DNA of 64,000 nucleotides, taken from the IMG/VR virus record IMGVR_UViG_3300032254_000004, positions 508 through 64,507 of that record, one strand, 5' to 3'. This DNA comes from a virus. Lineage: Duplodnaviria; Caudoviricetes. Shown piece after piece: positions 9,916 through 64,000 of this stretch. The first letter of the stretch is position 1, and every line of letters starts with the position of its first letter. The position numbers were made by a program, and so were the translations under genes. The notes under the pieces are model-generated. The model had not been told where the DNA came from. It did no database searches and worked only from the letters and a program-made list of their open reading frames with translations.

Positions 9916-11451
9916 ATGAGTTACCATAATTTAACAGTTCAAGTTGATTCTAGCCTATCCGAAACAAAAACGTTTATGGATAAAGATTATCTTGTAGTGC
10001 CTGTTATTGCGATGGTAGAAGGTGTTCGCTTTGGAGCTAACCAATCAGATGCGGAACTCGGACTTGCAAAAGATTTTGGTAAGTACCCTACCTCATGGAA
10101 TAATATTCCTTTGGTTGTTAATCACCCTAAGATTGATGATTCCTTTGTATCTGCCAGCTCAGTTGAAGTTCGAGAAGAATTTTCTTTCGGATTTACAAAT
10201 GCTGCTAAAATCGAAGACAAAAAGCTTAAACTTGAAGCTTGGATAGATACTTCTCGTGGAGATGATATTGATGAAGTACAAGAGTTCATTGATTTAATTG
10301 AAGCTGATGAAGTCATCGAAGTTTCAGTAGGCTTCTTTGCAGATGTAGAATCAAAAGAAGGATCTTTCAAAGGTCAATCCTATTCAGGTATTTGGCGTAA
10401 CATCGTACCTGATCATTTAGCACTCCTAACAGATGAAGTAGGCGCTTGTTCAATTGAAGACGGCTGCGGGGTGCCTCGATTAAACAAAGGACAAGATATG
10501 TCTTTAAAAACAGATAATGCCAAATCCAAGGAAGCTTGTCCTTGCGGGAACTCAGAATCCGCGTGTTCCTGTTCTACAACTACCGTTAACTCTAGCCCCG
10601 CCAATACGGATCCAAATACTGTACAGGTAATTACCGTTGGGGCTGTATCAGGTAAAATTACAAGTAATAGTGTTTCTCGACTTTTATCACAAGCCCTTCT
10701 AAAACATTTCAAAGAAGATGATTATGTTGATTGTTGGGTAGTTTCATATACAGCTGGAGAAGAAAGTACTGTTGTCTTCACTAGCTGGGTGAGCGGTCAC
10801 GGTTACGTGACTAAAGGCGTCAAATTTAATATTGACGATGAAGGAATTGTTACATTTGAAGGTGATCCTTTTGATGTAAGAATTGTTGAAATGGTCATTG
10901 CTGAATTTGATGATGATGGATCGGACGAACAGGAGAACAGCATGTCCAATCAAAATGGAAAGACTCAGGATAATGGTACTCCTGAGAAGTCTGACACTTC
11001 CCCAGTAAGTGTTACAATTAATACTACGCAGCCAGAAGTAGTAACATCAGCTACTGAACTTGGTACTAATGAACCTGCAGTGCAGGCAGAAGCACCAAAG
11101 GTTCTTTCTCGTGAAGAAGCTATTGCTTCAATGACACCAGAAGATCAGCAGCTGATTAATGATGCTCTTGCAGTACAGTCAGCACAGAAGGAAGAAGCTA
11201 TCAAAACGCTTAAAGCAACTAACCGCTGTAAGTTCGATGATACTTTCCTTCAGGCACAATCGCTTACAACGCTTAACAATCTTGTAGAATTAGCTGCTGC
11301 TGAATCTACAATTGAAGTTCAGGCTGAAGGAAATGATTATAGTGGCCGTGCTGCTCCTGTAAATCCTGCCAAAGCTCCAACTACTCAATCAAGCGGTATT
11401 GTACCAGCACCTAAAGTGTTTGAAATTAAAAAGTCAGGTACAGCTGCTTAA
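9916..11451 (+). CDS. head maturation protease/scaffold (DUF2213-like)
   Basis: PLVVNHP, EVSVG, PDHLALL..G.CS..DGCG motifs; low-complexity scaffold-like C-terminus. Confidence 0.85.
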   Translation: MSYHNLTVQVDSSLSETKTFMDKDYLVVPVIAMVEGVRFGANQSDAELGLAKDFGKYPTSWNNIPLVVNHPKIDDSFVSASSVEVREEFSFGFTNAAKIEDKKLKLEAWIDTSRGDDIDEVQEFIDLIEADEVIEVSVGFFADVESKEGSFKGQSYSGIWRNIVPDHLALLTDEVGACSIEDGCGVPRLNKGQDMSLKTDNAKSKEACPCGNSESACSCSTTTVNSSPANTDPNTVQVITVGAVSGKITSNSVSRLLSQALLKHFKEDDYVDCWVVSYTAGEESTVVFTSWVSGHGYVTKGVKFNIDDEGIVTFEGDPFDVRIVEMVIAEFDDDGSDEQENSMSNQNGKTQDNGTPEKSDTSPVSVTINTTQPEVVTSATELGTNEPAVQAEAPKVLSREEAIASMTPEDQQLINDALAVQSAQKEEAIKTLKATNRCKFDDTFLQAQSLTTLNNLVELAAAESTIEVQAEGNDYSGRAAPVNPAKAPTTQSSGIVPAPKVFEIKKSGTAA

Positions 11452-41209: not shown

Positions 41210-41528
41210 TTCGAAATTGTGTTAATGATACGACATTGCTTTCATTAGCATTGCCTTGTGAACTTGAAATTAATTCTTCCGAATCATTCCAATTGCCATG
41301 AGCTACAAACCTATTTAATTCTTCAAGATCGATCCGGTGAATATTACCAACTCTTCTAGATCGTAATTTGTTGGTTTCCACAAGCTTCAACGCTGTAGGA
41401 TATGATACCGAAGCTTCAGGATGTTCTTTCTTTAACCACTTAACTGCTTTAGAAAGTGAAAGAGATCCTACAGAATGCAGCTCATGGTCAAGTGACGCAT
41501 ATTTGCCTGCCACCTGACCATTCACCAC
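41184..41528 (-). CDS. excisionase-like HTH DNA-binding protein
   Basis: VSYPTALKLV...KLRSRRVG..HRI..EEL. Confidence 0.7.
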   Translation of the reverse strand: MVNGQVAGKYASLDHELHSVGSLSLSKAVKWLKKEHPEASVSYPTALKLVETNKLRSRRVGNIHRIDLEELNRFVAHGNWNDSEELISSSQGNANESNVVSLTQFRNGDDHGTN

Positions 41529-41534
41529 AGTTAC

Positions 41535-42014
41535 TTAAACTTCAAAGCCGTCGCCTTCAGCAGTATCACCGCTGAGAGGCTTCAGTACTTTGATAGCATT
41601 GCGATCTTCATTATCCTGACCCTTTTCAACTGCAACCTTTGCAAGAGCAGTTTTACCTGCAAGATAACCTTCATCAGCAATTTTCTTAATGTCGAAAGGA
41701 CCTTCCAACAACTCAGGTGCAAGAGCAGCCAGATTAGTCTTGGTCATGCCCTTAGCTTTTTCACTGAACGAGAAGTAGGAGAACAGTTTACGATTTTCGT
41801 ACTCACCTTCAGTGATCGTGAAAGTCATTGCCCACATTGGCTGACTGGATGCTTTAGAGATTTGATACTCTGCACTGTCAACAACTACGGGATACATACC
41901 CTTAGGAATGGCATCAAAGGACATCGCTTCGACGTCGGAAAGATCCATCATCAAAGAACCTTCTTCATTTTCACCATCCAAAAAAGTATCTACTGCTTCA
42001 TCAGACATATTCAT
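41535..42014 (-). CDS. single-stranded DNA-binding protein (DUF669-like)
   Basis: FDAIPKGMY, GEYENRKLF, acidic tail ending FEV. Confidence 0.8.
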   Translation of the reverse strand: MNMSDEAVDTFLDGENEEGSLMMDLSDVEAMSFDAIPKGMYPVVVDSAEYQISKASSQPMWAMTFTITEGEYENRKLFSYFSFSEKAKGMTKTNLAALAPELLEGPFDIKKIADEGYLAGKTALAKVAVEKGQDNEDRNAIKVLKPLSGDTAEGDGFEV

Positions 42015-48131: not shown

Positions 48132-48205
48132 TGGTTGGTAGAGTAGGATTCGAACCTACATCTCAAGAGTCAAAGTCTTGGATCCTACCATTAGACGATC
48201 TACCA
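48132..48205 (-). tRNA. tRNA-Gln(UUG)
   Basis: TGGTAGA/TCTACCA acceptor stem, CAAGA-CT-TTG-AC-TCTTG anticodon arm, GTTCGAATC T-loop, encoded CCA. Confidence 0.95.
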
Positions 48206-48206
48206 T

Positions 48207-48291
48207 TGGTGGCCGCTACCAGACTCGAACTGGTAAGCCTTTCGGCGGCAGATTTTAAGTCTGCTGTGTCTACCTATTTCACCAAGCGGCC
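48207..48291 (-). tRNA. tRNA-Leu(UAA)
   Basis: GGCCGCT/AGCGGCC acceptor stem, GCAGA-CT-TAA-AA-TCTGC, long variable arm, encoded CCA. Confidence 0.95.
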
Positions 48292-50972: not shown

Positions 50973-51584
50973 TTAGGTTCCTTGGGTTCCGTTGATAAGC
51001 TTTTCAGCATTGGCTCCACTAGCAATTGCTGTAGTAAATGCTTCGCGAGTAAAGCCGGCGCTTCGAATTTGTTGCTCAGTATAGCCACTGACTTTGTCGC
51101 CTTGATTGGCTCTTTGTTCTGCTCCTGTTGCCCATCTGACATTATTTGGTTCATAACCTCTCATATTGTCAATGCGATCTAATGTATGATTCTTTGAAGG
51201 GCGTTTTCCAACATCTTTGAAGAATAGTTCAAAACCAGTTTCTAGATCATACCATTCATCACAAATGTCAATACCCCGAGCACTATAATGCTTTTGAGCA
51301 ACATGTTCTTCATTGCGAGTACGTTCACGAACCATTAACCAGATACGGTATTCATTATTATAAATAGAACGTAATGATTTAGGGTTCTTACAACCGCAAT
51401 GTGTTTTAGGATTACCTTTACGCTTAAGGTACATTTCCGGTACTGTTAGCTTAGCTCCACAAGAACATTCTACCCTCCAACGTTTTCGAATTGAAGGGCT
51501 AGTTTTCTTACCCCCTTTTCGAGTACGTCCAATTAATGTAAAGTCACCTACTTTCTGACCAATCTTAAGAACTGATTTTGTCAT
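50973..51584 (-). CDS. free-standing HNH homing endonuclease
   Basis: CSCG, HCGC, Y..RGI.IC.EW, TLDRIDN..GYEP.NVRWAT..EQ..N. Confidence 0.9.
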   Translation of the reverse strand: MTKSVLKIGQKVGDFTLIGRTRKGGKKTSPSIRKRWRVECSCGAKLTVPEMYLKRKGNPKTHCGCKNPKSLRSIYNNEYRIWLMVRERTRNEEHVAQKHYSARGIDICDEWYDLETGFELFFKDVGKRPSKNHTLDRIDNMRGYEPNNVRWATGAEQRANQGDKVSGYTEQQIRSAGFTREAFTTAIASGANAEKLINGTQGT

Positions 51585-51889
51585 GCTTCAAGTCCGGCTT
51601 TCGGAATTGCATCAGGATGAATCAAAGTGAGGTAACAGCCTTTTGGATATAATTGGTTATTGTCCTCTTCTTTACTATTGAATCGTGATTCGGTATACAT
51701 CATTGACCAAGCTCCATTCTGCATCTCAGGAATGGCAAATTGCTCTTTAAAATAATCACGGGCAACTTTCCAACTTAGAGTACTGTGAGGAACTTCGACT
51801 TCAATCCAGAAGTCCTTCATTGCTTCACCTTGTCTAGTACGATGAATTTGCCCAAATGTAAAGTAATAACGATCAATTTTAGGTGTCAT
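51581..51889 (-). CDS. hypothetical protein
   Basis: YYFTFGQ.H motif; packed ORF. Confidence 0.65.
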   Translation of the reverse strand: MTPKIDRYYFTFGQIHRTRQGEAMKDFWIEVEVPHSTLSWKVARDYFKEQFAIPEMQNGAWSMMYTESRFNSKEEDNNQLYPKGCYLTLIHPDAIPKAGLEA

Positions 51890-52272
51890 GGTTTTACGAT
51901 CTTTCCATCTGCATCAATAAGATTAGCACGACGCATTGAGCCGATATAATTATTGATGCGTATACGTTCTATTGTTGCTTTTAAAGATTCCTGATTAGTT
52001 AGTACGTTCAAGATCCAACGATTACGCAAACGATACAATTTATGTGCCGTTGGCATTGTTTTCAGAGAGACCCTAAAAGCTTGCCATTCACAATGATCAT
52101 CAACTTCATAAACAGCCATCCTTACATGAACATGAGATGGTTGTTTGTATTCACCCATAAACTCCCAACATTTAATTTTGTCAGCAGCTAAAATGTCAAA
52201 GCGTTCATCCGGCAATGGTTTGCCAATTAAATGACGATACTCTTTGTCAAACTTTTTAAATTCTTTTGCCAT
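51886..52272 (-). CDS. hypothetical protein
   Basis: 128-aa packed ORF. Confidence 0.65.
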   Translation of the reverse strand: MAKEFKKFDKEYRHLIGKPLPDERFDILAADKIKCWEFMGEYKQPSHVHVRMAVYEVDDHCEWQAFRVSLKTMPTAHKLYRLRNRWILNVLTNQESLKATIERIRINNYIGSMRRANLIDADGKIVKP

Positions 52273-52279
52273 GTTAAAC

Positions 52280-52582
52280 CTATGTATCGTCCAAAACGCT
52301 TTTTATGATGATGTCAAGTTTCTCTTTTCTTTCTTCAAGATCGCATCTATGATCTTCCATATTTCCGAATTCAGTTTCACCTGTTGCACCATCATATGAG
52401 CCATATTCGCTATAAAGATCATTGATCTCTTCTTCATACATTGACTGAATTGCTTTAAAACCTTTTTCAAGCTTATCGATCTTAGCAGCTTGAGCCATAA
52501 TATGAGCAGCAGTCTCTTTTGGATTCCGCTGAAGCTCAATGATCAACATGCGTTCAAAATCACTATGTGCCAATTTACTCAT
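52280..52582 (-). CDS. hypothetical protein
   Basis: 100-aa packed ORF. Confidence 0.6.
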   Translation of the reverse strand: MSKLAHSDFERMLIIELQRNPKETAAHIMAQAAKIDKLEKGFKAIQSMYEEEINDLYSEYGSYDGATGETEFGNMEDHRCDLEERKEKLDIIIKSVLDDT

Positions 52583-52881
52583 ATCATTTGTTCCAGTATT
52601 TGTTTAATTTCAGAGTCAGACACAGAATAGTCATTGATTGATGATTTCCCACCATATTCATGCACTAACTGAATAGACGCAACACACTTATCGCCGAGTT
52701 TGACACTTAGTGTTTCCATATCAGATGCACCGATCTCCAACATAATATCATTGCAGTTTGTGCTGCCGAAAATAGCGACATCCCCTTCTTCGTCGAATAT
52801 GGTGATCGAAGTACCTTTTTCAAGTAATGCAGCTACCAAAACTTTTGTCTGCTCATATGATGCATATGTCTTTTCCATCAT
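52579..52881 (-). CDS. hypothetical protein
   Basis: 100-aa packed ORF. Confidence 0.6.
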   Translation of the reverse strand: MMEKTYASYEQTKVLVAALLEKGTSITIFDEEGDVAIFGSTNCNDIMLEIGASDMETLSVKLGDKCVASIQLVHEYGGKSSINDYSVSDSEIKQILEQMI

Positions 52882-53084
52882 GATGCTTCCTTAGTAAAAA
52901 TACCGTTGTCTTCGCCAAACTGGGTTTCTTGGAAATAGTCGTCGATCTCGACACAAAGCTCTACTACTGTCTCACAATAGCCAAGAGTGTCGGCGCCATT
53001 TTTTGCAAAATACCCATCTTCATTATGCTTCACGATAAGTCCCTTATAGGATCCCATTGTCTTTGCTGTATTACCACTCATCAT
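52878..53084 (-). CDS. hypothetical protein
   Basis: 68-aa packed ORF. Confidence 0.55.
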   Translation of the reverse strand: MMSGNTAKTMGSYKGLIVKHNEDGYFAKNGADTLGYCETVVELCVEIDDYFQETQFGEDNGIFTKEAS

Positions 53085-53326
53085 GATACCCCGTTCAAAA
53101 TTTCTGAAATGACATTACATTGTGTAACATATGTATAGTCTTCACGTTCAACACAACGTTCATAATATTGATCAAAAGCATACCTAACAGCTCTTTGTTG
53201 AATTATATTCAATTCTTCAAAAAGAGAAAAAGGCATATCTCCTGAAAAACTTACCATCAAACCTTTATCACAAGTTTCAAGTTCAATAGTAAATTTGCTT
53301 GTTGTAGGAATCATAAGTCCCATCAT
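53081..53326 (-). CDS. hypothetical protein
   Basis: 81-aa packed ORF. Confidence 0.55.
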   Translation of the reverse strand: MMGLMIPTTSKFTIELETCDKGLMVSFSGDMPFSLFEELNIIQQRAVRYAFDQYYERCVEREDYTYVTQCNVISEILNGVS

Positions 53327-53508
53327 GATGATGTGCCCTCTTTGAAAGCTTTACGAGCAGCACGAAGGCTTTCGTTCGTATAAGGATCGAGCTTTGCTCC
53401 GCCTGCTTTATTTGGAGGAAGCTGCGTGACATCATTCTTTGAGAGATAATCCTCAATCAAAGATTTGTCTTCAGCAGATACAACTTTAGGTGCATTTATG
53501 TGGTTCAT
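53323..53508 (-). CDS. hypothetical protein
   Basis: GGAG RBS; 61 aa. Confidence 0.6.
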   Translation of the reverse strand: MNHINAPKVVSAEDKSLIEDYLSKNDVTQLPPNKAGGAKLDPYTNESLRAARKAFKEGTSS

Positions 53509-53559
53509 CTTGAGTCTCCATCGTCAAGGTTAGATATTAATGAACAGTCTTATTTAAAT

Positions 53560-54125
53560 AAAAGGTGGTGAGCGAGGATAGAACTTAGCAACGTTTTAGA
53601 AAAATTAGATTGGCTACTAAATCTTCTAAAGGACTAGTTTCCATACCTTCATCTGCATATTCTAATTGCCCGCTCACCGTACTATCCTTTAGCTTAAAGT
53701 CCAACTAGATGATAGCTTCCGGACTTGGATTAATGAGACGATTTGTGCCAATCGTTAAATAAGTTACAAACATGAATAACTTATTGGACTTTTTTGTTCA
53801 TTCCACTAGTAAACAGGGAAGCCGACTAGCCGGGAAGATTTTGTTAGTCCGATGAGGCTCATTAACCACTAAATTATGTAGGATATTACAAAATCGAACT
53901 TTGTCTGATCGAACTCTGGAATGCAACCCCAGCACTGAATTTGTTAAAATACGTTGCATGTATTTATTTTTGTTCAGTCTTTGTAGCTTTTGTAATATCC
54001 GTATATTTCATTGTGTAGGATTTACCCTACGAGGTGCATTGTCTCTCTCCACCAATGTTTCCCATTTTCTTTGGGAGAAACCATATTAAGTAAGAAATTT
54101 GTTTCTAATATGGTTTCATTCAATA
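53560..54125 (-). ncRNA. candidate large structured ncRNA (~570 nt) of unknown family
   Basis: no credible long ORF; upstream promoter; many perfect helices (13, 12, 9, 8, 8 bp), 7-bp kissing loop, 3' pseudoknot/fold-back, U-tract. Confidence 0.65.
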
Positions 54126-54130
54126 TAATT

Positions 54131-54159
54131 ATATTATATTGAAAGTTTATTGCCCTCAA
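54131..54159 (-). promoter_or_regulatory. sigma70-like promoter reading into the candidate ncRNA
   Basis: TTGAGG-N17-TAATAT; the -10 lies inside an 11-bp perfect palindrome TTCAATATAAT-TAT-ATTATATTGAA. Confidence 0.65.
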
Positions 54160-54183
54160 GAGAAAAATAATAGGCAAATTAAA

Positions 54184-54660
54184 TTAATTTTCTGGGGGAT
54201 GGAAAATGTAAAAATAAGCTCCGTGCCTAATTGCGTCCCTGGCGTGTCTCTCACCAACCGCCTCCATACCCCAAGCTTCGAGCTTTTCATCAGTACAGAA
54301 TTGTTTGGCTTCTTGAGCTGTTTGTCCCTTAGGGATGATATTTGCTTGAAGAGATAAGAAACGTATGATGCCAATTATTTGTGCTGTATGTACTTCAGAC
54401 CAAGCATGAGTATCTGTCTTCCATTGATAAATTCGGTATACTTCGTAAACAATCTTATCCGGTCCTTTACGATAGATAAGATCACGTAATTCAACTAATT
54501 GTTCCCAAGTATATTCAGTTGTGCGGATTTGTCCTGATGAATGCAAAACCCCCTTACGAAAGAAAGCCCAACCTACTGTTTCACCAGGATCAAAAGCTAG
54601 TACATCGAGTTCCATATTTTGAGGATTCTTAGTCTGTACGAATTTTTCAAAAGGTAGCAT
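54184..54660 (-). CDS. RuvC-like Holliday junction resolvase
   Basis: LAFDPGETVGWA, IVYE, HARDAI. Confidence 0.75.
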   Translation of the reverse strand: MLPFEKFVQTKNPQNMELDVLAFDPGETVGWAFFRKGVLHSSGQIRTTEYTWEQLVELRDLIYRKGPDKIVYEVYRIYQWKTDTHAWSEVHTAQIIGIIRFLSLQANIIPKGQTAQEAKQFCTDEKLEAWGMEAVGERHARDAIRHGAYFYIFHPPEN

Positions 54661-54694
54661 TATGTTTAAATCCTATTATTGAAATAAGAGCAAG

Positions 54695-54727
54695 AAAAAA
54701 GGGCCTCCTAATTAAAGGAGACCCTTT
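54695..54727 (-). terminator. intrinsic terminator
   Basis: AAAGGG-CCTCC-loop-GGAG-ACCCTTT followed by T6 on minus strand. Confidence 0.7.
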
Positions 54728-54787
54728 CCATCCTAAGACTGCTATTGGGGGGAGGGGGGCAATCTCAGGATCACTGAAGATGAAGAC

Positions 54788-63930: not shown

Positions 63931-63959
63931 ATAATATAGTGTTTTTCAATAGCCCTCAA
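63931..63959 (-). promoter_or_regulatory. sigma70-like early promoter
   Basis: TTGAGG-N17-TATTAT. Confidence 0.7.
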
Positions 63960-64000
63960 GAATTAATTTGTGGTTGTTGGGGGGGGGGGGGGGGTCGCTA

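What the first reader, a model, noticed from the sequence alone, without database searches (positions are those of the whole stretch)
53560..54125. Candidate novel ~570-nt structured RNA with a perfect kissing loop
Seen (plus-strand coordinates): the largest gap in the early region lacking a credible gene, with a promoter at 54131-54159 and a U-tract near 53560. Perfect helices: 54077-88/54106-17 (12 bp); 53881-93/53988-54000 (13 bp); 53934-39/53973-78 topped by 53947-52/53960-65; a multiway junction closed by 53730-37/53858-65 that holds 53738-43/53750-55, 53758-66/53777-85 (9 bp) and 53786-90/53846-50 (with inner 53801-04/53833-36 and 53806-10/53825-29); and 53697-702/53721-26. The 7-nt loop of one hairpin (53953-59) is exactly complementary to the 7-nt loop of its neighbour (53921-27): AUGCAAC/GUUGCAU. 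A G-U pair closing that loop and A-rich internal loops (ACAAAA twice) work only on the minus strand, matching the promoter. Established: phages and prophages carry large ncRNAs (GOLLD, ROOL) that multimerise through kissing loops. Inference: a new large phage RNA (scaffold, protein sponge or anti-defence); I could not assign it to a known family.
Basis: partly seen in the sequence, partly recalled or inferred. Interest (0 to 1): 0.88.

Follow-up and report, generated by a model that had tools for sequence, protein, structure and literature searches.

The report
Orphan folded RNA candidate, marine phage
A 675-base gene-free stretch of an uncultured marine phage probably makes a highly folded non-coding RNA with repeated ACAAA loops, but nothing related was found in any collection searched, so neither its fold nor its function can be proven yet.

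Summary
Window 53509-54183 is the largest gene-free gap in the window.

The statistics are weaker than they look. The z-score of -7.0 is against shuffles. Against this genome's own 566-nt windows the fold ranks first but sits only about 2.6 sd out. A 7-nt loop-loop match of this kind occurs in 1-5% of control windows.

New support:
- A promoter block (CTTGAGGGC plus an aligned TATA-rich box) recurs ahead of the first early gene.
- ACAAA occurs 9 times on the minus strand against 0.9 expected, and 8 of the 9 lie in predicted loops.
- The fold is better defined than in all 78 control windows.
- Divergence from a Tara Oceans variant is low, and every change is compatible with the fold.

Against:
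- There is no Rfam match.
- No homologue was found in 48 related phage genomes or in the public collections searched, so covariation cannot be tested.
- No RNA data are available.

The gap and five ORFan genes form an insertion that the closest relatives lack.

Verdict: a plausible new, orphan, early-transcribed structured RNA, either standalone or a leader. Its function is unknown and multimerisation is untested. Interest is moderate.

The parts
54128..54160 (-). Promoter-like block: CTTGAGGGC (54152-54160, contains TTGAGG), then TAATAT (54131-36, 17-nt spacer) or TATAAT (54128-33)
   Evidence: The same 9-mer with a co-aligned TATA(A/T)TATAAT box occurs at 63931-63960(-) ahead of the first early ORF. 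TTGAGG-N16-18-TAWWAT occurs twice against 0.28 expected. The generic sigma-70 scan did not call it.
54119..54143 (.). 25-nt perfect palindrome (11-nt arms) overlapping the -10 region; possible operator
   Evidence: I6. One arm differs by one base in the Tara variant (54140). The half-site ATTATATTGAA also occurs at 59687-97(-) in another promoter-like gap.
54009..54117 (-). 5' domain: 12-bp hairpin (54077-54117), 5-bp hairpin (54060-54076) and a branched hairpin (54009-54057)
   Evidence: domain z = -4.5 against shuffles
53881..54000 (-). Domain D2: a 13-bp closing helix around three hairpins. Two adjacent hairpins carry the complementary 7-nt loops.
   Evidence: z = -3.9. Covariance model R1 was built on it.
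53953..53959 (-). Loop AUGCAAC
   Evidence: Exact complement of 53921-53927
53921..53927 (-). Loop GUUGCAU, closed by a G-U pair
   Evidence: The MFE prefers a 3-nt loop; the 7-nt loop form costs +1.5 kcal/mol.
53728..53867 (-). Domain D3: a 10-bp closing helix around a three-arm junction
   Evidence: z = -5.2; the MFE makes up 24% of the ensemble. Model R2 was built on it.
53679..53727 (-). Linker with competing weak hairpins. A 9-bp alternative helix 53696-53704/53784-53792 reaches into D3.
   Evidence: I10; z = -1.6
53567..53678 (-). Domain D4: a 10-bp G+C-rich closing helix around a long bent hairpin
   Evidence: z = -4.0. The C-to-U change at 53593 in the Tara variant turns a G-C pair into G-U.
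53556..53563 (-). U-tract UUUUAUUU, 3 nt after the D4 stem; possible leaky terminator
   Evidence: Sequence. The terminator scan did not call it.
53746..54102 (-). Nine ACAAA motifs on the minus strand. First bases are at window 54102, 53993, 53984, 53973, 53944, 53904, 53844, 53797 and 53746.
   Evidence: 9 observed against 0.91 expected (Poisson 5e-7). The maximum in any other 566-nt window is 5. Eight of the 9 are unpaired in the MFE.
53323..53508 (-). g61, the first of five small ORFan genes (down to 52280) that together with the gap form the insertion
   Evidence: It has a GGAG Shine-Dalgarno sequence.
54184..54660 (-). Upstream RuvC-fold Holliday-junction resolvase gene
   Evidence: AlphaFold2 pLDDT 95; Foldseek TM 0.67 to bacterial RuvC. 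Invariant D/E/H/D columns.

Best explanation
The gap encodes a non-coding RNA of about 560-570 nt on the minus strand. Transcription starts near 54122 from an early-type promoter and passes through four independently closed structural domains. It reaches a G+C-rich stem and U-tract near 53560, where some transcripts probably stop and others read through into g61 and the four ORFan genes behind it.

The RNA acts as RNA. Its rigid scaffold holds eight or nine single-stranded ACAAA motifs in hairpin and internal loops. I read these as a multivalent platform for a factor that recognises ACAAA (a decoy or sponge), or as A-minor donors for compaction or self-association. The pair of complementary 7-nt loops could add a loop-loop contact within one molecule or between molecules.

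Shown: the sequence features and their statistics.
Inferred: transcription, the RNA ends, any binding partner and any multimer.
For: - It is the largest gene-free gap of the window. No ORF in it has a family match or a Shine-Dalgarno sequence. Two 1-nt indels between the variants argue against coding.
- Promoter: CTTGAGGGC plus an aligned TATA box recurs ahead of the first early ORF.
- Fold: z = -7.0 on the minus strand against -4.65 on the plus strand. The GC-adjusted MFE ranks first among about 225 genome windows.
- Definition of the fold: ensemble diversity is 65.7 and ensemble defect 0.13. The 78 control windows have minima of 78.7 and 0.16 and means of 134 and 0.30. Each domain scores z = -3.9 to -5.2 against shuffles.
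- ACAAA: 9 observed against 0.9 expected, strand-specific, 8 of 9 in loops. Generic A-rich motifs are not enriched.
- Divergence from the Tara variant is 0.6-0.9%, against a 2.9% mean over 21.7 kb. Third codon positions next door differ by about 6%, and the neighbouring short gap 54661-54787 by 32%.
- All six differences are tolerated by the fold. Two turn G-U into G-C or the reverse (54172, 53593), and the rest lie in loops or the promoter spacer.
Against: - No homologue was found anywhere, so there is no covariation.
- There is no Rfam match.
- Against this genome's own background the energy excess is modest (about -2.6 sd). At 140 nt, coding windows and terminators score better.
- The low-divergence patch (53176-54150) also covers g61 and abuts a mosaic breakpoint at 53091-53143. 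Recent recombination could therefore explain the conservation; the gap is in the lowest 7% of windows, not unique.
- The promoter matches consensus at only 8/12, and the U-tract is offset by 3 nt.
- The closest relatives lack the whole insertion, so it is dispensable for the phage type.
Confidence: 0.42

Rival explanations
1. It is purely a cis-acting leader: a long structured 5' UTR or attenuator that sets how much transcription and translation reach g61 and the ORFan cassette, with no function in trans.
For: - No separate promoter is visible between the U-tract and g61, whose start lies 47 nt downstream, so g61 must be read through from the gap's promoter.
- When the g61 leader is included in the fold, the 5' arm of D3 pairs with 53530-53545, just upstream of the g61 Shine-Dalgarno sequence, instead of with its own 3' arm. 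This is a possible switch (I5, 83).
- The gap and the cassette are present or absent together.
- The scan's earlier notes describe promoter-linked kissing-loop leaders in other phages (unchecked leads).
Against: - 560 nt in four closed domains is far more than known phage leaders or attenuators need.
- The ACAAA enrichment has no obvious role in cis.
- The alternative pairing is 79% complementary and A+T-rich, so it could be chance.
- No look-alike of those other leaders was found.
Confidence: 0.2
2. It is a non-functional spacer: decayed remains of genes or a recombination scar in a hypervariable accessory slot, whose structure and motifs are chance or compositional.
For: - The closest relatives have only about 80 nt between the resolvase gene and the g128 homologue, so the region is an insertion in a mosaic hot spot.
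- It is a singleton.
- Energy and loop-complement statistics are each only at the 1-5% level against genome controls.
- The low divergence may reflect a recent exchange.
Against: - ACAAA at 9 against 0.9 expected, all on one strand and in loops, is hard to get by chance.
- The region ranks first on three fold measures.
- The promoter block is shared with the head of the early operon.
- tblastn with the relatives' neighbouring proteins finds no gene remnant in it.
Confidence: 0.2
3. It is a DNA-level element: a replication origin, a single-strand initiation site or a cluster of protein-binding sites, with ACAAA/TTTGT as the recognition core.
For: - It lies 1.2 kb downstream of the primase-like gene and next to the resolvase gene.
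- It has nine same-orientation copies of a 5-mer, a 25-bp palindrome and many inverted repeats.
- A relative (G004) has a non-coding array of about 17 ACAAAA motifs at about 10-nt spacing that looks like iterons.
Against: - There is no A+T-rich unwinding region; G+C is 0.32-0.37, like the flanks.
- The motif spacing is irregular (9-109 nt) and the flanks are not conserved.
- Cumulative GC skew does not switch here; the switches lie at about 30 kb and at the genome ends.
- Nested helices that close 90-120 nt only matter in single strands.
- The fold is 11 kcal/mol better on the transcribed strand because of G-U pairs.
Confidence: 0.1

Closest known systems
GOLLD and ROOL large 'ornate' RNAs of phages and prophages (Rfam; cryo-EM in PMC12286853)
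   Same: Phage-encoded, 500-800 nt, multi-domain, function unknown, rich in A-rich loops, with complementary loops. [quoted passage not shown]
   Different: There is no covariance-model match even at E <= 10. It is not next to the tRNA genes, which lie 5.3 kb away. There is no family, no covariation and no evidence of multimers. It is an orphan in a single phage lineage.
Protein-sponge RNAs with repeated loop motifs (CrcZ for Hfq, PMC4063720; CsrB/RsmZ for CsrA)
   Same: A non-coding RNA of about 400-570 nt that displays many copies of one short single-stranded motif. CrcZ is 407 nt with six A-rich stretches bound by the distal face of Hfq.
   Different: The motif here is ACAAA, not GGA. The Hfq-type patterns are not enriched: (ARN)3 occurs 4 times against a genome mean of 3.6, and AAnAAnAA 3 times against 0.6. 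There is no CrcZ or CsrB model match. The host and the binding partner are unknown.
phi29-type packaging RNA (pRNA)
   Different: pRNA is 120-174 nt and belongs to phi29-like phages. There is no Rfam match here. This RNA is four times longer and sits among early genes.
Candidate structured RNAs mined from IMG/VR by comparative genomics (PMC10690425)
   Same: An uncatalogued structured element in an uncultured phage genome from IMG/VR.
   Different: Those 10,006 candidates were defined by covariation across homologues. This one has no homologue, so that approach could not have found it.

Membership tests
GOLLD (Rfam) | Match to the family covariance model | tested here: not met
   cmscan found no match at gathering score over the whole window, or at E <= 10 over 53300-54400.
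ROOL (Rfam) | Match to the family covariance model | tested here: not met
GOLLD/ROOL | Homo-oligomeric assembly through kissing loops and A-minor contacts | not testable with these tools
   Complementary 7-nt loops exist, but nothing here tests assembly.
GOLLD/ROOL | Phage or prophage location, often beside tRNA genes | tested here: inconclusive
   It is in a phage genome, but the two tRNA genes lie at 48132-48291, 5.3 kb away.
CrcZ-type Hfq sponge | Several A-rich (ARN)n or AAnAAnAA stretches above background | tested here: not met
   (ARN)3 occurs 4 times against a genome mean of 3.6. AAnAAnAA occurs 3 times against 0.63, which 8% of windows reach. Only ACAAA is enriched.
CsrB/RsmZ-type CsrA sponge | Repeated GGA in hairpin loops | tested here: not met
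   Loop sequences listed from the MFE show no GGA repeats. There is no Rfam match.
phi29 pRNA | Match to the Rfam model | tested here: not met
Replication origin | Regularly spaced iterons and an A+T-rich unwinding element | tested here: not met
   Only weak two-copy direct repeats were found. G+C equals that of the flanks. ACAAA spacing is irregular.
Replication origin | Switch of cumulative GC skew | tested here: not met
   Skew is monotonic through 50-58 kb and switches at about 30 kb and at the ends.
Intrinsic terminator (3' end of the RNA) | G+C-rich stem followed directly by a U-tract | tested here: inconclusive
   There is a 10-bp stem with arms 92 nt apart, then 3 nt, then UUUUAUUU. 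The scan did not call it.
Conserved structured RNA family (any) | Covariation in homologues | not testable with these tools
   No homologue was found beyond variants at least 99% identical in the gap.

The most novel reading that the evidence does not exclude
This is the founding member of a new class of large phage RNA. It would be carried on a mobile promoter-RNA-ORFan cassette.
Probability: 0.1. Interest if true: 0.8.

Novelty: new variant of a known kind. Interest (0 to 1): 0.45.

Why it matters
Large structured phage RNAs such as GOLLD and ROOL are among the least understood products of phage genomes. All known ones were found through covariation, which cannot see lineage-restricted RNAs.

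If this element is real, phages would also carry orphan, cassette-borne large RNAs. The ACAAA loop array would give a concrete handle for finding a binding partner by pull-down with the loops intact and mutated. If it is not real, it is a useful warning: a shuffle z-score of -7 and a 'perfect' kissing loop can arise in a genome whose ordinary sequence already folds well.

Tried and rejected
Searches for homologues, all negative:
- blastn of the gap against GenBank phages.
- blastn and nhmmer against 80 loci around resolvase homologues.
- BLAST of the gap against 48 whole related IMG/VR records.
- Covariance models of D2 and D3 against those 48 records, against the closest Logan, ENA and GTDB loci, and against pattern-derived loci.
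- Four pattern scans of viral contigs. Two returned nothing and two returned only hits that the models rejected.
- One metagenome scan, which hit only an unrelated organism through a chance 20-24-mer.

Neighbouring proteins:
- g61 and g81 have no relatives.
- g100a hits only repetitive, low-complexity proteins.
- The single-protein scan with the resolvase found nothing.

Expression: no RNA holder is listed among the sequencing runs. The laid contigs gave only the two known variants.

Ideas rejected:
- Hfq/CrcZ analogy: ARN motifs are not enriched.
- Positional analogue in relatives: most apparent gaps after the resolvase gene are covered by overlapping ORFs, and the one real gap (L008) is unstructured, z = -0.3.
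- An RNA-guided nuclease pairing with the upstream RuvC-like gene: it is a plain 158-aa RuvC fold, and its many homologues lack any such RNA.
- Small ORFs inside the gap: no family hits.

Full report
**Context.** The window is almost all of a 64.5-kb IMG/VR virus record. Near-identical DNA occurs in a microbial-mat metagenome and in Tara Oceans marine metagenomes. Genes on the minus strand from about 64 kb down to 29.8 kb are the early and replication genes. The finding sits between a 158-aa gene (54184-54660) and a 61-aa ORF (53323-53508). I confirmed the 158-aa gene as a RuvC-fold Holliday-junction resolvase: pLDDT 95, TM 0.67 to bacterial RuvC. With ORFs of 55 aa or more on the expected strand, this is the largest uncovered stretch of the window, ahead of the 524-nt divergent control region at 1796-2319.

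**The observation.** The RNA falls into a 5' hairpin group and three domains, each closed by a 10-13-bp helix: D2 53881-54000, D3 53728-53867 and D4 53567-53678. Pair probabilities are mostly 0.86-0.98. The loops AUGCAAC and GUUGCAU are exact complements on adjacent hairpins of D2. The MFE closes the second loop to 3 nt, and the 7-nt form costs +1.5 kcal/mol.

**Is it more than chance?**
- Against dinucleotide shuffles the answer looks overwhelming: z = -7.0 on the minus strand and -4.65 on the plus strand, with each domain at -3.9 to -5.2.
- Shuffles are a lenient null here. I regressed MFE on G+C over about 225 windows of 566 nt from the same genome. The target lies about 31 kcal/mol below expectation, or about 2.6 sd. 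That is first in rank, but the next windows, which are coding, are at -2.5 sd.
- At the 140-nt scale, terminators and some coding windows score better. The gap's best window ranks 7th.
- The fold is better defined than in any of 78 control windows. Ensemble diversity is 65.7 against a minimum of 78.7 and a mean of 134. Ensemble defect is 0.13 against a minimum of 0.16.
- A perfect loop-loop complement of 7 nt or more occurs in 1 of 156 control windows with strict loops, and in 7 of 156 with the same relaxation the target needs.

The structural evidence is therefore consistently best in the genome, but each item is only at about the 1-5% level.

**New evidence: promoter.** However, the block CTTGAGGGC, followed at the same distance by TATA(A/T)TATAAT, occurs only here and at 63931-63960 on the same strand. 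The second copy lies just ahead of the first early ORF. The sequence around the predicted start, ATTATATTGAA, recurs in a third promoter-like gap at 59.7 kb. This makes a transcription start near 54122 credible. A 25-nt perfect palindrome overlaps the -10 region.

**New evidence: ACAAA motifs.**
- ACAAA occurs nine times on the minus strand of the 566 nt, against 0.9 expected from the genome (Poisson 5e-7). No other window exceeds five.
- Eight of the nine lie in predicted hairpin loops, junctions, or the two 7x7 internal loops.
- The enrichment is specific. Hfq-type (ARN)n patterns and A5 runs are at background level, so the CrcZ analogy I first considered is weak.

**Variation.** The only other versions are a Tara scaffold and short contigs (L083, L084, L231-L234).
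- The gap differs at six places, or 0.9%. In the adjacent resolvase and primase-like genes about 6% of third codon positions differ, and the short gap 54661-54787 differs by 32%.
- Over 21.7 kb aligned, the mean divergence is 2.9%, and the gap is in the lowest 7% of 675-nt windows.
- All six changes are compatible with the fold. One turns G-C into G-U in D4. One turns U-G into C-G in the hairpin 54150-54177. Two are 1-nt indels and one is a substitution, all in loops. One lies in the promoter spacer.
- Caveat: the low-divergence patch extends over g61 and ends at a mosaic breakpoint at 53091-53143, so recent recombination is an alternative explanation.

**Origin.** In the closest relatives (resolvase 54-60% identical; L085, L090, L091), the resolvase gene is followed after about 80 nt by the homologue of g128 (51886-52272). 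The gap plus five small ORFan genes is therefore a 1.9-kb insertion.

**Homologues.** None was found by BLAST or nhmmer, by two covariance models over 48 whole related phage records and all other loci, or by pattern scans. Rfam gives nothing, even at E <= 10. No RNA run was listed.

**Rivals.**
- A DNA origin is disfavoured. There is no A+T-rich element, the motif spacing is irregular, and GC skew does not switch here.
- A pure cis-leader is a serious rival, because g61 has no promoter of its own. When the g61 leader is included in the fold, the 5' arm of D3 can pair just upstream of the g61 ribosome-binding site.
- A non-functional spacer cannot be excluded for a singleton.

**Verdict.** Most likely this is a real, early-transcribed, highly structured non-coding RNA of a new, orphan type. 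It may work in trans as an ACAAA-loop platform, with leaky termination feeding the cassette behind it. Confidence is about 0.4 for that reading, and about 0.6 for any RNA-level function. Membership of GOLLD or ROOL is rejected, and likeness to them in mechanism is untested. The scan's earlier notes report kissing-loop leaders on other phage DNA, but no look-alike of this sequence.

Noticed in passing
L132:3900-4350 (G004, IMG/VR relative; same as L094:1330-1760): A non-coding array of about 17 ACAAAA motifs (CTAACAAAAA and similar) lies on one strand, often at 10-nt spacing. It follows an extremely A+T-rich repeat block, at a convergent junction of gene blocks. It looks unstructured (A/C-rich, G-poor) and could be iterons, a Rho or other protein loading site, or a distant analogue of the ACAAA loops here.
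   Followed up: partly
window 54661-54787: This short gap holds a strong 14-bp terminator (54696-54729, minus strand). It is 32% divergent between the window and the Tara variant, while the flanking genes differ by 2-8%. It is a hypervariable or exchanged spot.
   Followed up: partly
window 52280-53508 vs L083:4155-6021: The ORFan cassette is itself mosaic. The Tara variant has genes of 61, 92, 118, 67, 142 and 100 aa where the window has 61, 81, 68, 100 and 100 aa. Non-homologous replacement starts at 53091-53143.
   Followed up: partly
window 63931-63960 and 63975-63992 (minus strand): The likely main early promoter shares CTTGAGGGC and a TATA box with the promoter of the finding. Just upstream is a run of about 20 C, which could be a genome end or an assembly artefact.
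   Followed up: partly
window 53161-53300 (inside g81) and 11021-11160, 41461-41600: These coding windows have GC-adjusted folding energy as extreme as, or more extreme than, any 140-nt piece of the candidate RNA (z -3.6 to -4.5). They could be embedded structures or simply this genome's background.
   Followed up: no
window 53696-53704 / 53784-53792: A perfect 9-bp alternative helix joins the linker to the inside of D3 and competes with the 5-bp helix 53786-90/53846-50. GGACU and AGUCC each occur twice, so a conformational switch or pseudoknot is possible.
   Followed up: no
window 50973-51584: An HNH endonuclease gene is conserved (56-57% identity) at the same relative position in the closest relatives, downstream of the g128 homologue.
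   Followed up: partly
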